A stretch of DNA of 42,656 nucleotides from a virus (lineage: Duplodnaviria > Heunggongvirae > Uroviricota > Caudoviricetes). Location: the IMG/VR virus record IMGVR_UViG_2718218168_000005; one strand, written 5' to 3'. The translations under genes were made by a program, and so were the position numbers. Below are positions 28,547 through 32,672 of this stretch, piece by piece. Every line of letters begins with the position of its first letter. The stretch's first letter is position 1. The notes under the pieces were generated by a model that was not told the DNA's origin, ran no database searches, and saw only the letters and a program-made list of their open reading frames with translations.

Positions 28547-28674
28547 CAGAATCCTTCCGGATAATTAGCTCTCCCCTTTAAGGGACCATCCCTCTTATCC
28601 CTGCGCGCTACTTAAGTATTTTTGATTCTATTCCGGCACCGTCCAGAACTTCAAACGCGTTGAAAATAAAAACA

Positions 28675-28694
28675 AAAACCCGCCGAAGCGGGTT
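28675..28694 (-). terminator. Rho-independent terminator of the relB-relE-hokD operon
   Basis: Hairpin aacccgc-cgaa-gcgggtt followed by T-run on the minus strand. Confidence 0.7.
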
Positions 28695-28762
28695 AAGTGC
28701 GGGTGCGTTGAGGATGCCTGCCACATCAGAGGTGGCGAGGGATTTCTCCCCCGCCGGGTCTC

Positions 28763-28918
28763 TTACTCCTCAGGTTCGTAAGCTGTGAAGACAGCGACCT
28801 CCGTCTGGCCGGTTCGGATTCGTACCTCGCAGAGGTCTTTCCTCGTTACCAGTGCCGTCACTATGACGGTTAAACAGATGACGATCAGGGCGATTAACAT
28901 CGCCTTTTGCTGCTTCAT
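28763..28918 (-). CDS. hokD: Hok-family type I toxin (51 aa)
   Basis: Translated by hand: MKQQKAMLIALIVICLTVIVTALVTRKDLCEVRIRTGQTEVAVFTAYEPEE; below the ORF-track cutoff. Confidence 0.9.
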   Translation of the reverse strand: MKQQKAMLIALIVICLTVIVTALVTRKDLCEVRIRTGQTEVAVFTAYEPEE

Positions 28919-28989
28919 AGCCTGCTTCTCCTGTCAACGCAAAGCAGAAGTGTCACCTTCGGTGCGAAACAGAGATGTCATGCTTTGGT

Positions 28990-29277
28990 TCAGAGAATGC
29001 GTTTGACCGCCTCGCTATATACTTCCGAGCGTTCTCTTTTCCCAACAGAAATCACGAAAACGACAACTTTCTCGTCTATAACCTGGTATACAAGGCGATA
29101 GCCTGAAGACCGGAGCTTAATCTTGTAACAATCAGGCATACCACGGAGCTTGTTTGCTTCAATCCGGGGTGACTCAAGTACTTCAACCAGCTTCTTTTTC
29201 AACTGTTCACGTACCGTCGAGCCCAGCTTTCGCCATTCCTTTAGTGCCCGCTCGTCAAAATCCAGAAAATACGCCAT
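28990..29277 (-). CDS. relE: RelE mRNA-interferase toxin (95 aa)
   Basis: Matches recalled RelE. Confidence 0.92.
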   Translation of the reverse strand: MAYFLDFDERALKEWRKLGSTVREQLKKKLVEVLESPRIEANKLRGMPDCYKIKLRSSGYRLVYQVIDEKVVVFVISVGKRERSEVYSEAVKRIL

Positions 29278-29516
29278 CAGAGTTCATCCAGCGTCACACG
29301 TACTGGCTTAGGATTACGAAGCCGTTCTTTCACTATCTCCACAAGTTCAGCATCTTCATCACTCAGGAGTGTCTGTTTGAACGGCAAGCGTTCATTGTCA
29401 GCGATATACTCGAGCATGAGACGAAGCGCTTCAGAAGGAGTTACACCCATTTTTTCAAGCGCGGCGTAAGAACGCGCTTTAAGTTCATCGTCAATACGCA
29501 GGTTAATGCTACCCAT
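29277..29516 (-). CDS. relB: RelB antitoxin (79 aa)
   Basis: Matches recalled RelB; overlaps the relE start. Confidence 0.92.
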   Translation of the reverse strand: MGSINLRIDDELKARSYAALEKMGVTPSEALRLMLEYIADNERLPFKQTLLSDEDAELVEIVKERLRNPKPVRVTLDEL

Positions 29517-29540
29517 GTCTTACACCTCTTGTAATTACAA

Positions 29541-29846
29541 ATGTCATTACAAGTATCGCACTACAACATGCTTAGGGCAAGTCACGAAGGAAGTCAGAAA
29601 GTAGTCGTAAGAACGGTGATCACTGTCCGCTTTGTGCCAGGAGCAGCCATTGCTAAGTCCATCCTGTATTGTGCAGGTCAGCTCGTTTTTAAAGAGTCCG
29701 GCCATCATCTTACTGGTACAGACACCATATACTTTGTGACGGTCAGGCTACATATGCACAACTCAACTTATTCATCTATTTTTTGCTTTAGCATGTCAGT
29801 GTTGCTTTCTCGTCGGCGGGTGAGCGGTGACCTGACCTGTCGATAA
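29541..29846 (+). CDS. ydfV: hypothetical protein YdfV-like (101 aa)
   Basis: Position between relB and flxA as in Qin; function unknown. Confidence 0.5.
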   Translation: MSLQVSHYNMLRASHEGSQKVVVRTVITVRFVPGAAIAKSILYCAGQLVFKESGHHLTGTDTIYFVTVRLHMHNSTYSSIFCFSMSVLLSRRRVSGDLTCR

Positions 29847-29998
29847 AGGAACGTAACACGTTTTATGCAACACCCGCATGCGGCAGAAAATTATTGCCGA
29901 ACGTTTACCCCTGTCAACAAGCTTTACTTTCTGAGGCGCGCCAGCCCGCGAGGAAAACAATCTGAACATCAAACAATTAATGACACAAGAAATACGAT

Positions 29999-30025
29999 TA
30001 AAGATTTTTTTGTACATGCCGATAG
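29999..30025 (+). promoter_or_regulatory. Sigma-28 (FliA) promoter for flxA
   Basis: TAAAGATT-N11-GCCGATAG, close to the class III consensus TAAAGTTT-N11-GCCGATAA, about 25 nt upstream of flxA. Confidence 0.7.
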
Positions 30026-30048
30026 TGCTTTTTTAAAAGGAGAAATCT

Positions 30049-30381
30049 ATGTCTGTCACAATTCAGGGAAATACCTCAACCGTTATTTCAAACAACTCCG
30101 CCCCGGAAGGAACATCAGAAATAGCCAAAATCACAAGACAAATTCAGGTGCTGACTGAAAAGCTTGGGAAAATCTCATCGGAAGAGGGGATGACGACACA
30201 GCAGAAAAAAGAAATGGCTGCATTGGTACAGAAGCAAATTGAAAGCCTCTGGGCTCAACTGGAGCAGTTGTTAAGGCAGCAGGCAGAGAAAAAGAATGAA
30301 GACGCGACAGTTCAGCCTGATAAAAAAGAAGAGAAAAAAGACGATACAAATACCGCTGGCACCATTGATATTTACGTCTAA
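30049..30381 (+). CDS. flxA: FlxA (FliA-regulated protein, 110 aa)
   Basis: Matches recalled FlxA; AGGAGA SD upstream. Confidence 0.85.
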   Translation: MSVTIQGNTSTVISNNSAPEGTSEIAKITRQIQVLTEKLGKISSEEGMTTQQKKEMAALVQKQIESLWAQLEQLLRQQAEKKNEDATVQPDKKEEKKDDTNTAGTIDIYV

Positions 30382-30395
30382 GTGACAGCCGTATT

Positions 30396-30420
30396 GTGGC
30401 CCTCATCGGGCCACTTTTCG
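30396..30420 (+). terminator. Rho-independent terminator downstream of flxA
   Basis: Hairpin gtggccc-tcatc-gggccac followed by TTTT. Confidence 0.65.
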
Positions 30421-30817
30421 CCATCAGCCTTTTCTTTAAAGACATATTATCTTTGTATCATTTCTGATAGTTAACATTACAAGATATAAGTAATGGACGC
30501 ACTCCCAATTAGTCTATTTAAATCGCCACGAGTTTAACTGACAACCCATGATCAATTATGAATTGCAACTATTTCTGTAGTCACTTTTGTGGGGACAGTC
30601 CACAAAACTGCCAACTTCCGCTTCTTGCTCTTAGCGGACATTAGCATAGGCTATTTACCATAACGCCTCATTACGCGCACCGCCCAGACTGACTCAGCGC
30701 GTTTCTGGCATATCCCCGGTAAAACAAGTAACAAACCACCCGAAAATGAACACCAGAAACGCGACTTAAGAATCTACCCTATGAATGGATATGCACTCAA
30801 CCGAATCGATCTTGGTT

Positions 30818-32158
30818 TCAATCTTTTTTATCGGGATCAGGCTTCTTTTTAGGTAACTTCGGGGGCTTAACTTGCTGATGACTTTGCGTTCGGCGCGTAA
30901 GCCAGGGATGGTCAGCTTTAGGTTTAACATAGTATTTTGAGCGTAAATCAATACGGGCATTATCCACTCGTTCATGGACACTCTTTTCATCATCCAGTGG
31001 TATAGGCTCCGGGCCATCAACATACTTTTCCCAGCCCAGCGCTTTCCCGTCATACAGAACGTTAATTTCACCGTCAAAGTTCTCGCATACAGTAACAACC
31101 GAATGCCTAAGTCGATATCCCCGGCTCTCACTGCGTACCTGAAACGCACTGCTTTTGTACTGGAAAGTGAGATTTTTAGACAGAACGCGCTTCGCCTGTA
31201 GGCTGAAGATATAACCCAGTTCCTCTTCAGAATGGTGCACATCAAGATGAGCATTATCAGTAGTACGAGGCGACGTAGCGAACCGGTTGTTATAGGCTTC
31301 AATAAAGGTCGGCAACCATGCATTTGCTGTTTCAATATCACTGATATTCTGAAGCCGCATTTCTTTGACCAGCCTGTCCTGTAGTGTCTGATTGGCGCGC
31401 TCTACCCGCCCTTTTGCCTGCGGGCTGTTGGCATGGATTGGCTCGATGCCCAGTGTCTTTATCGCACGAGTGAACTGGGTCAGCTCACCTTCCCGCTCTG
31501 GGTTATTTACCCTGAATATACTGTGTCTATCAGAGTAGAGAGCGAGCGGTACGCCATGATCATTAAGGTAACCCCGGAGGGTTTCCATGTAAGCCCGGGT
31601 TGTTTCAGCAGGCACAAAACGCAACGCCATCAACGCACTGGTGGCATCATCAATGAAAACGATCAGTGTACATCTGGGGCCTCGATTTTCAAACCAGTCA
31701 TGAGGTGAGCCATCAATCTGGATCAGTTCACCGTAAGATGGTCGTCGCATGCGGCGTTGATATATACGGGCAATTTTACGACGGCGTTCACGCCATAACC
31801 CCTCTTCTATCATCCACTTTCTGAGAGTTTCAACGGATAAAGATAAACCGTGTATCTCGCGCAATTTTTCGCACGCAAACGTAGGTCCAAAATCAGCGTA
31901 ACGGCCTTTGAGGAGTGAAATTACTGTTGCTCTGAATTCAGTAGAAAAGGAATTATTAGGACGCTTTCCACGTCGGTGGGAAACCAGACCAGAAGGCCCT
32001 TCATTTCTATACCGTTGCACCAGACGTTTAACCTGCCGAATAGAAATGCCAATGCGTGCCGCAGCTTGTTCCTGAGTAATATGTCGATTAATTGACTCCT
32101 GAATAATCTGAAGTCGGTGGAGTTCCTTATGACTCATCGTAACAGTCTCTTTGATCAT
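30818..32158 (-). CDS. DDE transposase with rve (integrase core) domain and N-terminal HTH, IS481/IS1202-like (446 aa)
   Basis: Motifs IQIDGSPHDW, FIDDATS and ANSPQAKGRVERANQTLQ form a DDE triad; element boundaries not identified. Confidence 0.75.
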   Translation of the reverse strand: MIKETVTMSHKELHRLQIIQESINRHITQEQAAARIGISIRQVKRLVQRYRNEGPSGLVSHRRGKRPNNSFSTEFRATVISLLKGRYADFGPTFACEKLREIHGLSLSVETLRKWMIEEGLWRERRRKIARIYQRRMRRPSYGELIQIDGSPHDWFENRGPRCTLIVFIDDATSALMALRFVPAETTRAYMETLRGYLNDHGVPLALYSDRHSIFRVNNPEREGELTQFTRAIKTLGIEPIHANSPQAKGRVERANQTLQDRLVKEMRLQNISDIETANAWLPTFIEAYNNRFATSPRTTDNAHLDVHHSEEELGYIFSLQAKRVLSKNLTFQYKSSAFQVRSESRGYRLRHSVVTVCENFDGEINVLYDGKALGWEKYVDGPEPIPLDDEKSVHERVDNARIDLRSKYYVKPKADHPWLTRRTQSHQQVKPPKLPKKKPDPDKKD

Positions 32159-32166
32159 GAAAAATC

Positions 32167-32186
32167 CCCCAGAGAATTGTCTGGGG
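32167..32186 (-). promoter_or_regulatory. Hairpin overlapping the transposase Shine-Dalgarno sequence
   Basis: Perfect 7-bp stem ccccaga/tctgggg with 6-nt loop; on the minus strand the GGGGGA SD lies within and next to the 3' arm. Confidence 0.4.
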
Positions 32187-32492
32187 ACATTTTAGAATGG
32201 TTCAAAGGGGACATTACAGCTTGGTGTTAACAATAGCCTGCTTCTCCGTGCCTTTCGGCACGTAAGAGGCTAACCTACATGTGTCTAGCATGAAATTGGC
32301 CTCAGATTAATGTTAAGCGTCTTGCAGGACGCGTAATGTTAACTGGGGCTTTTCTCTATCTGCCGTTGGTGTCCATGCCCGAGGCAGATAGCCTCAAGCA
32401 CCCGCAGTCATTCTACTTAACTAAGATTTCCCCGCAAACCGTTTTTGTCCAGCACAGTAAATATCCAACTAAACCAATGGAGTTCGCTGTAT

Positions 32493-32672
32493 TTACCGCC
32501 AGTATTCAATGCACATGACCGCCATGAACACCCCTAAAAAAAGGGCATTTATATATCCAAATATTAATATCAAAACATCAACTTTTTCCATATACCTTGC
32601 TGTGAAGATGATGGGCATACATGATGCGAACAACCAGAACGCAACAAACAAAAACTGCAATGCGTTTTTCAT
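32493..32672 (-). CDS. hypothetical small membrane protein (59 aa, two predicted TM segments)
   Basis: AGGAGG 5 nt upstream of ATG; MKNALQFLFVAFWLFASCMPIIFTARYMEKVDVLILIFGYINALFLGVFMAVMCIEYWR. Confidence 0.45.
   Translation of the reverse strand: MKNALQFLFVAFWLFASCMPIIFTARYMEKVDVLILIFGYINALFLGVFMAVMCIEYWR

What the first reader, a model, noticed from the sequence alone, without database searches (positions are those of the whole stretch)
30587..32260. rve-family transposase element with an SD-occluding hairpin and repeated GGGGACA motifs
The 446-aa DDE transposase has a perfect 7-bp stem hairpin (32167..32186) that overlaps its ribosome-binding site, a common way of suppressing read-through translation in IS elements. 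The motif GGGGACA/GGGACAT recurs on both sides (30591, 30635, 32183, 32207), but I could not define terminal inverted repeats or target duplications, so the element limits are unknown. From memory K-12 carries only an integrase-like pseudogene fragment in this interval, so this may be the intact parent.
Basis: partly seen in the sequence, partly recalled or inferred. Interest (0 to 1): 0.4.

Follow-up and report, generated by a model that had tools for sequence, protein, structure and literature searches.

The report
Toxin-gene-targeting transposon carrying relBE
The "lone transposase" is one end of a 3.3-kb transposon that carries the relBE toxin-antitoxin genes and has inserted precisely at the start codon of the hokD toxin gene, as its relatives do in many other hok genes; this seems to explain where E. 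coli K-12's relB-relE-hokD operon came from.

Summary
The ORF (30818..32158, minus strand, 446 aa) is an intact IS1202-family (ISNCY; "ISEsa1-like") DDE transposase. The 7-bp hairpin is real. The mobile unit is not the 1.7-kb interval given. It is a 3301-bp transposon, 28932..32232. It has TGT-terminated 19/26 inverted repeats and a perfect 15-bp target duplication (ATAGCCTGCTTCTCC, at 28917..28931 and 32233..32247). It carries relE, relB, ydfV, flxA and the transposase.

It sits in the ribosome-binding-site/start-codon stretch of hokD and separates the hokD coding sequence from its hok leader/sok region (Rfam sok, 104 bits). An E. coli genome with a single copy of the 15-mer and an uninterrupted hokD locus gives the empty site.

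Across 168 related loci, about three quarters of the distinct flanks at the transposase-proximal end are hok leaders. They represent at least 15 hok alleles, all joined at the same spot. Duplications are 13-16 bp where verified, and element sizes run from 2.3 to 12.8 kb.

K-12 keeps only a decayed copy; its ydfW/intK gene is the last 49 codons of the transposase.

The transposase family is known. I found no description of the true boundaries, the relBE core cargo or the hok targeting in the papers I could search.

The parts
28763..28918 (-). hokD coding sequence (51 aa). This is the downstream half of the split hok locus. It keeps its SD and ATG because they lie within the target duplication.
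   Evidence: tblastn with Hok proteins; translation MKQQKAMLIAL...; RefSeq annotation hokD.
28917..28931 (.). Left copy of the 15-bp target-site duplication, ATAGCCTGCTTCTCC (reverse complement GGAGAAGCAGGCTAT = hok SD through the AT of the ATG).
   Evidence: Identical to 32233..32247. Present once in the empty site L020.
28932..32232 (-). The complete transposon, 3301 bp: IRR, relE, relB, ydfV, flxA, conserved spacer, transposase, IRL.
   Evidence: Ends, duplication and empty site. The same 3301-bp unit, with 8 mismatches, sits in a different plasmid hok with its own duplication.
28932..28957 (+). Distal terminal inverted repeat (IRR), TGTCAACGCAAAGCAGAAGTGTCACC. Its tip reads ...TTGACA facing outward on the transposase strand.
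   Evidence: Matches IRL at 19/26 (22/30). It is the single best match to IRL anywhere in the 42.6-kb window on either strand; the next best is 17.
28990..29277 (-). relE (95 aa), conserved core cargo.
   Evidence: ORF list; RefSeq annotation. RelE is 97-100% identical in the six size variants examined, 3.3-7.7 kb, and relE is annotated in the 12.8-kb version.
29277..29516 (-). relB (79 aa), conserved core cargo. The relBE promoter reads out through IRR into hokD.
   Evidence: Co-transcription as a relBEF operon is established knowledge (Gotfredsen and Gerdes 1998, as cited in PMC5120126).
29541..29846 (+). ydfV; variable cargo (only its first 20-52 codons are shared by other variants).
30049..30381 (+). 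flxA; variable cargo specific to the 3.3-kb variant.
30617..30762 (-). Conserved non-coding segment downstream of the transposase gene. It ends in an IRR-like palindrome (here degenerate: TCCGCT 30617-30622 / AGCGGA 30633-30638; in relatives AATGTCCGCT...AGCGGACATT). It marks the boundary between the transposase module and the cargo. By my reconstruction, the 1609-bp 'ISEsa1' listed in the literature would end about here.
   Evidence: Sequences diverge completely to the left of it between variants. A homologous segment lies after a different TA cassette in L109.
30818..32158 (-). Transposase, 446 aa. N-terminal HTH; catalytic D149, D170/D171, D210, E253, with Q260 at E+7. Residues 398-446 equal K-12 YdfW.
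   Evidence: RefSeq product 'IS1202-like element ISEsa1 family transposase', 446 aa.
32166..32187 (-). Hairpin covering the Shine-Dalgarno-like GGGGGA. It is followed by ATTTTTC and then the ATG, so it also resembles an intrinsic terminator.
   Evidence: Analogous pairing of AAAUGUCC with GGAUNUUUC occurs in L110 (z = -2.3) and L109 (z = -0.8).
32183..32215 (+). Two direct copies of GGGGACATT (32183-32191 and 32207-32215; AATGTCCCC on the transposase strand). Presumed transposase-binding repeats.
   Evidence: (family D8). Conserved in L109 and L110.
32207..32232 (-). Transposase-proximal terminal inverted repeat (IRL), TGTTAACACCAAGCTGTAATGTCCCC.
   Evidence: Sharp boundary at 32232 in every comparison.
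32233..32247 (.). Right copy of the 15-bp target-site duplication.
32233..32403 (-). Orphaned hok mRNA leader with the sok antitoxin region and a truncated mok frame. This is the upstream half of the split hokD locus.
   Evidence: Rfam RF01794 sok, 104.1 bits (gathering score 59), E = 1.2e-23, full model 1-157. The model's final AUG (the hok start) reads AUU here because the G is replaced by the first base of the transposon. The mok' frame stops 16 nt inside IRL.

Best explanation
**What it is.** The transposase belongs to a 3301-bp transposon at window 28932..32232. Its layout is IRR, relE, relB, ydfV, flxA, a conserved spacer with an IRR-like palindrome, the transposase gene, and IRL. It is an IS1202-family (ISNCY) element of the ISEsa1 lineage.

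**Shown by sequence comparison:**
- It inserted into a Qin-type prophage hok/sok locus, within the 15 bp that run from the hok Shine-Dalgarno GGAG to the AT of the start codon.
- That 15-mer was duplicated.
- The hokD coding sequence is now separated from its own promoter, leader, mok frame and sok antisense gene.
- The same transposase module with the same IRR-relE-relB module, and varying cargo between them, is found at the equivalent position of many different hok alleles on plasmids and chromosomes of Enterobacteriaceae.
- It is nearly always in the same orientation, with the transposase gene co-directional with hok mRNA.
- So it is a target-selective transposon whose preferred site is the hok translation-initiation region.

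**Inferred:**
- The HTH-DDE transposase binds the TGT-terminal repeats and the AATGTCC(C/A)-type motifs near position 20, with a second copy about 24 nt further in.
- It joins the IRR end at a fixed point directly 5' of the hok GGAG. The IRL end is joined 13-17 bp away, which would account for the variable duplication length.
- relBE acts as the element's own addiction module. Its promoter reads out through IRR, so hok, which keeps its SD and ATG in the duplicated copy, becomes the third gene of a relB-relE-hok operon. This would be the origin of the K-12 relBEF arrangement.
- The hok promoter reads into IRL. The hairpin plus T-run in front of the transposase ATG probably attenuates that read-through and masks the ribosome-binding site.

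**Predicted:** the outward TTGACA at the IRR tip and the TGTAAT at IRL nt 15-20 would form a 17-bp-spaced promoter if the ends were joined with a 3-bp spacer. That would suggest an IS3/IS481-like circular intermediate.
For: **Identity of the transposase**
- NCBIfam ISNCY_2 match at E = 7e-140.
- RefSeq names the same 446-aa product an ISEsa1-family transposase.
- The family signature described in bioRxiv 10.1101/2022.12.17.520857 is present: a DDE triad with two extra D residues and Q at E+7 (D149, D170/D171, D210, E253, Q260).

**Boundaries of the element**
- IRL ends sharply at 32232 in all alignments.
- IRR at 28932 matches IRL at 19/26. It is the unique best match in the whole window.
- A perfect 15-bp direct repeat flanks the unit.
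- The empty site in E. coli 2017-01-4CC has one copy of the 15-mer, with the hokD coding sequence contiguous with its leader.
- In the spread listing for complete E. coli genomes, most rows are two flank pieces spanning exactly 345 bp (172 + 188 - 15), which is the empty site. 759 of 5426 genomes carry the full insertion.

**The target is hok**
- The Rfam sok model matches full-length at 32403..32232 and ends at the hok AUG.
- The HokD coding sequence lies on the other side.

**The unit moves as a whole**
- The copy in Enterobacter plasmid L003 differs at 8 of 3301 positions. It sits in a plasmid-type hok (Hok 88% identical to R1 Hok, against 45% for HokD) with its own duplication, ATGGCCTTCTTCTCC.
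- 68 loci contain both ends. Sizes include 2261, 2575, about 3274, about 3301, 4237, 4487, 4600, 4655, 6093, 7694 and 12843 bp.
- Exact duplications are 15 bp in 53 loci, 16 bp in 4 and 13 bp in 1. Their sequences differ and match the local hok allele.
- One non-hok site also has a 15-bp duplication, with two mismatches.

**Target preference**
- Of 53 distinct 45-nt flanks at IRL, 33 are hok leaders by a sequence test and about 6 more are hok-derived, from at least 15 hok alleles. 13 are unrelated.
- One insertion is in the opposite orientation at the same 15-mer (L015).
- A second lineage, whose transposase is 80% identical and which carries a different RelE/ParE-type TA, also abuts a hok leader at GGAGAAAAAGGCTAT|.

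**Core and variable cargo**
- RelE is 97-100% and RelB 99-100% identical in the six size variants examined (3.3-7.7 kb); the genes between them and the transposase differ.
- The 12.8-kb version also has annotated relB and relE. Its cargo includes ncrABCY and chrBA.

**Hairpin:**
Against: - No transposition experiment exists. Mobility is inferred from comparative genomics only.
- Distinct flanks are not a strict count of independent events. Some differ only by point mutations, and recombination between copies demonstrably shuffles flanks (L106, L171, L002/L005).
- What the transposase actually recognises in hok is unknown. About a quarter of distinct flanks are not hok.
- A conserved IRR-like palindrome inside the element (30617-30638) leaves open that a 1.6-kb core IS can also move on its own. 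I saw no such copy with its own duplication, but ISfinder lists ISEsa1 as 1609 bp.
- The IRR of the second lineage could not be located.
- The hairpin's function rests on folding alone. The terminal 76 nt are invariant among close copies, so no covariation test was possible. The perfect stem is not conserved in the 80% relative. The transcription start is unknown.
- The junction-promoter idea is a sequence coincidence until a circular form is detected.
Confidence: 0.85

Rival explanations
1. An ordinary 1.6-kb ISEsa1 copy (about 30623..32232) landed next to hok by chance. Its duplication was lost through recombination between copies, which is the generic explanation offered for IS1202-family members that lack direct repeats. 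relBE, ydfV and flxA are unrelated neighbours.
For: - ISfinder data quoted in PMC10132070 give ISEsa1 as 1609 bp, TIR 15/22, no TSD.
- Similarity between the 91% and 99% variants stops at about 30623.
- An IRR-like palindrome sits there.
- bioRxiv 10.1101/2022.12.17.520857 proposes recombination as the cause of missing repeats.
Against: - No 1.6-kb copy with flanking repeats was seen in 168 loci.
- The sequence left of about 30620 is not host DNA. It is one of a few cargo types, and each is found joined to several different hok leaders at the other end.
- Perfect duplications flank the long units at different hok alleles.
- The empty site closes up exactly at 28931/32233.
Confidence: 0.05
2. 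relBE entered hokD on its own, by recombination of a free TA cassette acquired from plasmids (the view attributed to Ramisetty and Santhosh 2016). The transposase arrived separately.
For: PMC6379469 states that hokD was shortened by integration of relBE acquired from plasmids. PMC5120126 argues that TA operons spread horizontally as minimal units.
Against: - The insertion that separates the hokD coding sequence from its leader is one block. It has inverted repeats at both tips and a single 15-bp duplication.
- The same block, transposase included, occurs with 8 of 3301 differences in an unrelated plasmid hok.
- relBE always lies directly inside the IRR end in the six size variants examined and in the 12.8-kb version.
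Confidence: 0.04
3. The long units arise by one-ended or surrogate-end transposition, as with ISEcp1. A 1.6-kb IS would occasionally use a chance IRR-like sequence further away and so mobilise whatever lies between.
For: Cargo is variable and lies between the transposase and the distal end. An inner IRR-like site is retained.
Against: - Surrogate ends should differ from event to event.
- Here every size class with both ends in hand, from 2.3 to 12.8 kb, has the same IRR sequence, and relE-relB lies directly inside it in the seven variants checked.
- That IRR is a better match to IRL (19/26) than the inner site, which I aligned by eye from the output at about 15/26 at best.
- This arrangement may describe the element's distant origin, not how it moves now.
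Confidence: 0.06

Closest known systems
ISEsa1 (ISfinder; IS1202 family, formerly the ISNCY/IS1202 group)
   Same: The transposase is named ISEsa1-family by RefSeq. The transposase-proximal end and the 1.6-kb transposase module correspond in size to the 1609-bp entry. The 439-aa ISfinder protein equals this ORF read from its second ATG (M8).
   Different: The published description has TIR 15/22 and 'no TSD detected' (PMC10132070). Here the functional unit is 3.3 kb (2.3-12.8 kb in relatives), has a 19/26 IR and a 15-bp TSD, carries relBE, and prefers hok. I could not run ISfinder, so the nucleotide identity to the reference copy is unknown. The window copy is about 91.5% identical to a second widespread variant.
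ISAba32/ISAjo2 subgroup of the IS1202 family (dif/pdif-targeting IS such as ISKpn21, ISLad2)
   Same: Nearest other transposases in the plasmid search (44-48% aa identity). Both have TGT termini, and both show oriented, position-specific insertion next to a short conserved site that is common on plasmids.
   Different: Those elements insert 5-6 bp from the XerC arm of a dif-like site and make 5-6-bp duplications. This one inserts in the hok SD/start codon and makes 13-17-bp duplications. Both 2023 papers report targeting only for the short-TSD group.
ISTde1 subgroup of the IS1202 family
   Same: Duplication length of 15-17 bp; TGT at both ends; a second conserved block near position 20 of the repeats.
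   Different: By the published phylogeny, ISEsa1 is not in that subgroup; it forms a third subgroup with ISCARN112. No target preference has been reported for the ISTde1 group.
Transporter IS (tIS) such as ISKpn21, ISKpn65, ISRel10
   Same: IS1202-family elements that carry passenger genes between the transposase and one end.
   Different: Those have a single passenger of unknown function. Here a relBE toxin-antitoxin pair is a constant module, and up to about 10 kb of further cargo (Ni/Co and chromate resistance, a CDF transporter, a LysR regulator and others) is exchangeable.
The relBEF (relB-relE-hokD) operon of E. coli K-12 and IS-inactivated chromosomal hok loci
   Same: K-12 has the same IRR junction, the same left duplication copy and the same relE-relB-ydfV-flxA block (100% identity over 28760..31002).
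   Different: K-12 has lost the first 385 or so codons of the transposase, IRL and the hok leader/sok. The transposon structure therefore cannot be seen there, and ydfW/intK looks like an orphan.
RBS-sequestering hairpins at IS ends (IS10, IS50 type protection from outside transcription)
   Same: A stem that includes the Shine-Dalgarno region immediately inside the transposase-proximal end. In the usual orientation there is outside transcription, from the hok promoter.
   Different: In IS10/IS50 the 5' arm lies upstream of the element's own transcription start, so only read-through RNA folds. Here the start is unknown, both arms lie close to the ATG, and the stem is also followed by a T-run like a terminator.

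Membership tests
IS1202 family (ISNCY) | Transposase matches the curated ISNCY model above its cutoff. | tested here: met
   NF033594, 466.4 bits against a cutoff of 250, residues 17-377 over model positions 1-365 of 368. The IS481 model scores 132, below its cutoff of 224.
IS1202 family (ISNCY) | N-terminal HTH plus a DDE triad, with two extra conserved D residues between D1 and D2 and Q (not K/R) seven residues after E. | tested here: met
   HTH_28/29/32 at residues 14-116. D149, D170/D171, D210, E253, Q260 read from the sequence. The signature is as described in bioRxiv 10.1101/2022.12.17.520857.
IS1202 family (ISNCY) | Imperfect terminal inverted repeats of about 24-28 bp that begin 5'-TGT, with a second conserved block near position 20. 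| tested here: met
   TGTCAACGCAAAGCAGAAGTGTCACC against TGTTAACACCAAGCTGTAATGTCCCC: 19/26, with TGTC shared at positions 20-23.
IS1202 family (ISNCY) | Target duplication of a subgroup-typical length (5-6, 15-17 or 27-28 bp). | tested here: met
   15 bp here. In 68 related loci: 15 bp in 53, 16 bp in 4, 13 bp in 1.
ISEsa1 as catalogued (1609 bp, Tnp 439 aa, no TSD) | High nucleotide identity to the ISfinder reference sequence. | not testable with these tools
   No ISfinder access. RefSeq labels the identical-length product 'IS1202-like element ISEsa1 family transposase'.
ISEsa1 as catalogued (1609 bp, Tnp 439 aa, no TSD) | The 1.6-kb segment is the transposable unit. | tested here: not met
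   No duplication flanks about 30623..32232. The empty site closes at 28931/32233. There are no 1.6-kb copies with their own duplication in 168 loci.
ISAba32 subgroup (dif/xrs-targeting) | Insertion 5-6 bp from a XerC/XerD site, with a 5-6-bp duplication. | tested here: not met
   The flank is a hok leader (Rfam sok) and the duplication is 15 bp. I did not scan the flank for a XerC/XerD-type site.
[quoted passage not shown] | A hok mRNA leader/sok region followed by a Hok-family coding sequence. | tested here: met
   RF01794 at 104 bits, full length. HokD coding sequence at 28763..28918. The two are contiguous in the empty site.
IS10/IS50-style protection hairpin | The stem sequesters the transposase SD. 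| tested here: met
   The minimum-free-energy structure pairs UCUGGGGG, which overlaps the GGGGGA SD-like run. Analogous pairing occurs in L110 and L109.
IS10/IS50-style protection hairpin | The stem forms only in transcripts that start outside the element; supported by covariation. | tested here: inconclusive
   The transcription start is unknown. The terminal 76 nt are invariant in close copies. Three lineages keep SD pairing but with different partners.

The most novel reading that the evidence does not exclude
A previously unrecognised family of IS1202-type transposons homes to the translation-initiation region of hok toxin genes on plasmids and prophages. These elements carry relBE as a built-in addiction module along with exchangeable cargo (up to Ni/Co and chromate resistance). 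On insertion they rewire a type I toxin so that it is transcribed from a type II toxin-antitoxin promoter. On this reading, the textbook relBEF operon of E. coli K-12 is the decayed footprint of one such insertion, and the catalogued 'ISEsa1 without target duplication' is only the transposase module of the real element.
Probability: 0.6. Interest if true: 0.75.

Novelty: new variant of a known kind. Interest (0 to 1): 0.62.

Why it matters
- **An open catalogue entry.** It would resolve why ISEsa1 and its subgroup appear to have no target duplication, and it shows that the 1.6-kb definition is incomplete.
- **Targeted insertion in the IS1202 family.** So far this has been reported only for dif/pdif sites. 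This finding adds a second, unrelated and very common plasmid/prophage target.
- **Origin of a model TA system.** It gives a concrete vehicle and mechanism for how relBE of E. coli K-12 came to sit in front of hokD, and why hokD lacks its mok and sok control elements there.
- **Spread of cargo.** hok loci sit on conjugative plasmids, so this is a route by which cargo such as metal-resistance operons is placed on them.
- **Annotation.** ydfW/intK should be read as a transposase remnant. The relBE-to-transposase block is one mobile element, present in 759 of 5426 complete E. coli genomes.

Tried and rejected
- **Inverted and direct repeats within 30300..32600.** Only short chance pairs turned up. 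The partner end lies outside that range.
- **GGGGACA as an enriched motif.** The count is 5 against 4.5 expected. I rejected it as a window-wide signal and kept only the GGGGACATT pair in IRL.
- **A left end at about 30613-30623,** suggested by where plasmid matches stop. Rejected, because the sequence beyond it is cargo, not host DNA.
- **Translational coupling of the truncated mok frame to the transposase.** The mok' frame stops 16 nt inside IRL, 58 nt before the ATG, and the junction offset varies by 1-3 nt between sites. Rejected.
- **A covariation test of the hairpin.** Impossible among close copies because the terminal 76 nt are invariant.
- **L092 as a tandem dimer.** On inspection, the left element has only an IRR-like tip (82% over 50 nt) and the right one is a 30-nt IRL stub. 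It is not evidence for dimers.
- **The distal end of the second lineage (L109/L110/L112).** Not found within 8-30 kb.
- **Ramisetty and Santhosh 2016 (FEMS Microbiol Lett).** Not held in the library, so I cannot say exactly how much of the hokD::relBE junction it described.
- **Literature searches.** ISEsa1; IS1202 with hok; ISNCY with relE and hok; hokD with relBE and transposon. None gave a description of the element.
Full report
**1. The observation**

The region holds one long ORF on the minus strand, 30818..32158, 446 aa.
- It has N-terminal HTH domains and an rve_3 integrase-core match.
- It scores 466 bits on NCBIfam NF033594 'ISNCY family transposase', whose cutoff is 250. The IS481, IS21, IS630 and IS3 models all fall below their cutoffs.
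- RefSeq annotates the same 446-aa product in near-identical copies as 'IS1202-like element ISEsa1 family transposase'.
- The catalytic residues can be read directly: D149, D170/D171, D210, E253, with Q260 at E+7. This is the IS1202-family signature described in bioRxiv 10.1101/2022.12.17.520857.

The 7-bp perfect stem at 32167-32173/32180-32186 exists.
- It is the core of the predicted RNA fold on the transposase strand: -14.5 kcal/mol for 46 nt, z = -2.3; z = -1.7 for the 113-nt leader.

GGGGACA is exact at three of the four stated positions. At 30635 the sequence is GCGGACAT.
- The heptamer is no more frequent in the window than in shuffles, 5 against 4.5.

**2. Finding the ends**

Repeat searches inside 30300..32600 gave nothing convincing.

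Comparison with E. coli genomes and plasmids showed two things:
- a sharp right boundary at 32232 (...GGTGTTAACA|);
- DNA to the right of it that is annotated hokD in many genomes.

Aligning three copies showed identical element sequence up to 32232, followed by three different but homologous flanks.

Rfam places the sok/hok-leader model RF01794 on 32403..32232 of the minus strand.
- The match is full length, 104 bits, E = 1.2e-23.
- The model's last three positions, the hok AUG, read AUU here. The G has been replaced by the first base of the element.
- So the transposase-proximal end is joined inside a hok start codon.

A scan of one genome per species for the terminal 29-mer returned 16 loci. 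In most of them the same end abuts some hok leader at ...CAT| or ...CATG|.

The left side never continued with hok coding sequence. Instead, a hok gene lay 3-6 kb further left in several loci. In the window this is hokD, at 28763..28918, just beyond relE.

Printing the sequence upstream of those hok start codons showed the answer.
- In the window, ...TTCAT-AGCCTGCTTCTCC|TGTCAACGCAAAGCAGAAGTGTCACC... on the left corresponds to ...GGTGTTAACA|ATAGCCTGCTTCTCC-GTGCC on the right.
- The 15-mer ATAGCCTGCTTCTCC occurs at 28917..28931 and at 32233..32247.
- The sequences just inside the two copies are inverted repeats that begin with TGT, matching at 19 of 26 and 22 of 30.
- The site at 28932 is the single best match to IRL anywhere in the 42.6-kb window on either strand. 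The next best scores 17.

E. coli 2017-01-4CC provides the empty site. It has rem-hokD, one copy of the 15-mer, and then the leader, with no relBE and no transposase.

In the spread listing of complete E. coli genomes:
- most rows are two flank pieces spanning exactly 345 bp, which equals 172 + 188 - 15;
- 759 of 5426 genomes carry the full insertion;
- K-12-type strains match only 28760..31002.

The mobile unit is therefore 28932..32232, 3301 bp. It comprises IRR, relE, relB, ydfV, flxA, a conserved spacer, the transposase and IRL.

**3. It moves as a unit and prefers hok**

Enterobacter plasmid L003 carries the same 3301 bp with only 8 differences.
- It is inside a plasmid-type hok: Hok is 88% identical to R1 Hok, against 45% for HokD.
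- It has its own duplication, ATGGCCTTCTTCTCC.
- The flanks are essentially unalignable with those in the window.

Metagenome and viral-contig scans brought the set to 168 loci. Sixty-eight of them contain both ends.
- Sizes are 2261, 2575, about 3274, about 3301, 4237, 4487, 4600, 4655, 6093, 7694 and 12843 bp.
- Exact duplications are 15 bp in 53 loci, 16 bp in 4 and 13 bp in 1.
- Most of the rest differ by a point mutation or a truncated contig; a few are recombinants or could not be checked.
- The duplicated sequence differs from site to site and matches the local hok allele. One non-hok site also shows a 15-bp repeat with two mismatches (L004).

Of the 53 distinct 45-nt flanks at IRL:
- 33 are hok leaders by a sequence test;
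- about six more are hok-derived, through a leader deletion, nested ends or another hok-like leader;
- 13 are unrelated.

Grouping by duplication sequence and offset gives at least 15 hok alleles and, by my estimate, some 20 independent events.

All but one insertion have the transposase co-directional with hok mRNA. L015 is the reverse orientation at the same 15-mer.

The IRR junction is fixed at ...CTCC|, which is directly 5' of the hok GGAG. The IRL junction floats by 1-3 nt.

**4. Architecture of the family**

In the six size variants examined (3.3-7.7 kb), RelE is 97-100% and RelB 99-100% identical. Both lie directly inside IRR, together with the relBE promoter region and the first codons of ydfV. 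The genes between them and the transposase differ.

The largest version is on Phytobacter plasmid pMRY16-398_1.
- It also has annotated relB and relE directly inside IRR.
- It carries ncrABCY and chrBA between the two conserved modules.
- It has a perfect duplication, GGAGAAGTCAGCTAT.
- It sits in the hok next to psiA/psiB.

The transposase module ends in a conserved segment of about 150 nt and a palindrome (AATGTCCGCT...AGCGGACATT; degenerate in the window at 30617-30638). Beyond that point the variants diverge completely.

By subtracting 1609 bp from 32232, the ISEsa1 entry would end at about this point. [quoted passage not shown]

My reading is that the catalogued ISEsa1 is the transposase module of a longer element. 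That would explain the missing duplication.

I found no 1.6-kb copy with its own duplication. Independent movement of a core IS is not excluded.

A second lineage exists on Klebsiella and Citrobacter plasmids.
- Its transposase is 80% identical.
- It keeps the two AATGTCCC(C) motifs in IRL.
- It carries a different RelE/ParE-type TA pair.
- In K. pneumoniae it again abuts a hok leader, at GGAGAAAAAGGCTAT|.
- Its other end was not found.

**5. How it probably works**

Shown:
- the structure, the duplication, the empty site and the repeated use of the hok initiation region;
- the consequence for the locus. The hok coding sequence keeps its SD and ATG in the left duplication copy but is cut off from its promoter, leader, mok and sok. 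It now lies 71 nt downstream of relE.

Known from the literature: relB, relE and hokD (relF) are co-transcribed in K-12 (Gotfredsen and Gerdes 1998, as cited in PMC5120126).

Inferred:
- The DDE transposase makes cuts staggered by about 15 bp, anchored at the 5' edge of GGAG next to the leader stem-loop.
- relBE stabilises the element and its replicon.
- hok loci make good landing sites because they ride on conjugative plasmids and prophages.
- The hok promoter reads into IRL. The stem is followed by ATTTTTC (terminator-like) and pairs with the SD-like GGGGGA, so it probably limits transposase expression from outside transcription.

The perfect stem is not conserved in the 80% relative. In both other lineages, however, the AAAUGUCC motif pairs with GGAU(A/G)UUUC directly before the AUG (z = -2.3 in L110 and -0.8 in L109). 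SD masking therefore appears to be a recurring theme.

No sigma-70-like promoter was found in the 75 nt before the ATG.

The IRR tip ends in TTGACA, and IRL has TGTAAT at nt 15-20. Joined ends with a 3-bp spacer would make a consensus-spaced promoter, as in IS3-type circle junctions. This is a prediction only.

**6. K-12**

The K-12-type locus is 100% identical over 28760..31002 and then continues with ydfX. It therefore retains:
- the left duplication copy;
- IRR, relE, relB, ydfV, flxA and the spacer;
- the last 61 or so codons of the transposase.

ydfW, at 30818..30967 in window coordinates, is in frame with the transposase and equals its residues 398-446. The fragment is a transposase tail, not an integrase.

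**7. What is known**

- The transposase family, its termini and its duplication classes are described.
- Targeting has been reported only for the short-duplication ISAba32/ISAjo2 group, at dif-like sites.
- Passenger genes have been reported only as single unknown ORFs.
- That relBE integrated into hokD and came from plasmids is stated in PMC6379469, citing a 2016 paper I could not read.
- I found nothing that describes the transposon, its ends, its duplication or its hok preference.
- The library is incomplete and ISfinder/TnCentral could not be queried, so prior description remains possible.

**8. Verdict**

The finding as written is an ordinary, common IS-family transposase with a real hairpin.

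Followed outward, it is one end of a well-defined relBE-carrying transposon with a strong preference for the hok start region. That appears to be a new variant within the IS1202 family, and it accounts for a classic K-12 operon.

The structural claims are secure. The target-recognition, regulatory and junction-promoter ideas are hypotheses.

Noticed in passing
L111 516..13358 (Phytobacter plasmid pMRY16-398_1, NZ_AP018757.1): A 12,843-bp version of the same transposon. It carries ncrABCY (Ni/Co), chrBA (chromate), a methyltransferase and a HupE/UreJ gene between the transposase and relBE. It has a perfect 15-bp duplication and sits in the hok next to psiA/psiB of an F-type conjugative plasmid.
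   Followed up: partly
L052 and L072, directly after the 15/16-bp hok target at the IRL end: The hok target is followed by a different TGT-terminated end (TGTGTAAGTTCACACAG...). This may be a second kind of element using the same site.
   Followed up: no
L092 11665..11759: An IRR-like tip (82% over 50 nt) and a 30-nt IRL stub are separated by exactly 15 bp of hok SD sequence. No relBE or transposase lies within 11 kb on the IRR side.
   Followed up: partly
window 30617..30762; L109 9063..9206: A conserved non-coding segment of about 150 nt, ending in an IRR-like palindrome, lies between the transposase stop and the cargo. In L109 a different TA cassette is inserted between the transposase gene and this segment. 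Its role is unknown; it could be a vestigial inner end, an operator or an RNA.
   Followed up: partly
L112 5917..10190 (K. pneumoniae plasmid NZ_CP147641.1): Two further ISNCY transposase genes lie next to a GNAT/DUF1778 toxin-antitoxin pair. Toxin-antitoxin cargo may be a recurrent companion of IS1202-family elements.
   Followed up: no
window 28932..28940 with 32213..32218: The IRR tip reads ...GCGTTGACA (a perfect outward -35) and IRL has TGTAAT at nt 15-20. Joined ends with a 3-bp spacer would give a 17-bp-spaced promoter.
   Followed up: no
window 28673..28754 (-): A weak isrK-like Rfam match (25 bits, below the gathering score of 50) lies immediately 3' of hokD. It is probably just the terminator stem-loop.
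   Followed up: no
window 31002/31003: This is the end-point of homology with K-12-type strains, inside the transposase gene. K-12 continues with ydfX-dicC, whereas this strain has a different immunity module (Cro/CI, YdaT-like) further right.
   Followed up: partly
L171 (viral contig), IRL flank: The right flank is yet another hok-like leader (CATCATAGCCCCTCC|ATTGCC...), while the left flank is the Qin hokD site. This is an example of flank shuffling by recombination between copies.
   Followed up: no
68 loci with both ends: The E. coli-type element comes in two common lengths, 3301 bp and about 3274 bp (a 27-bp internal indel). I did not locate the indel.
   Followed up: no
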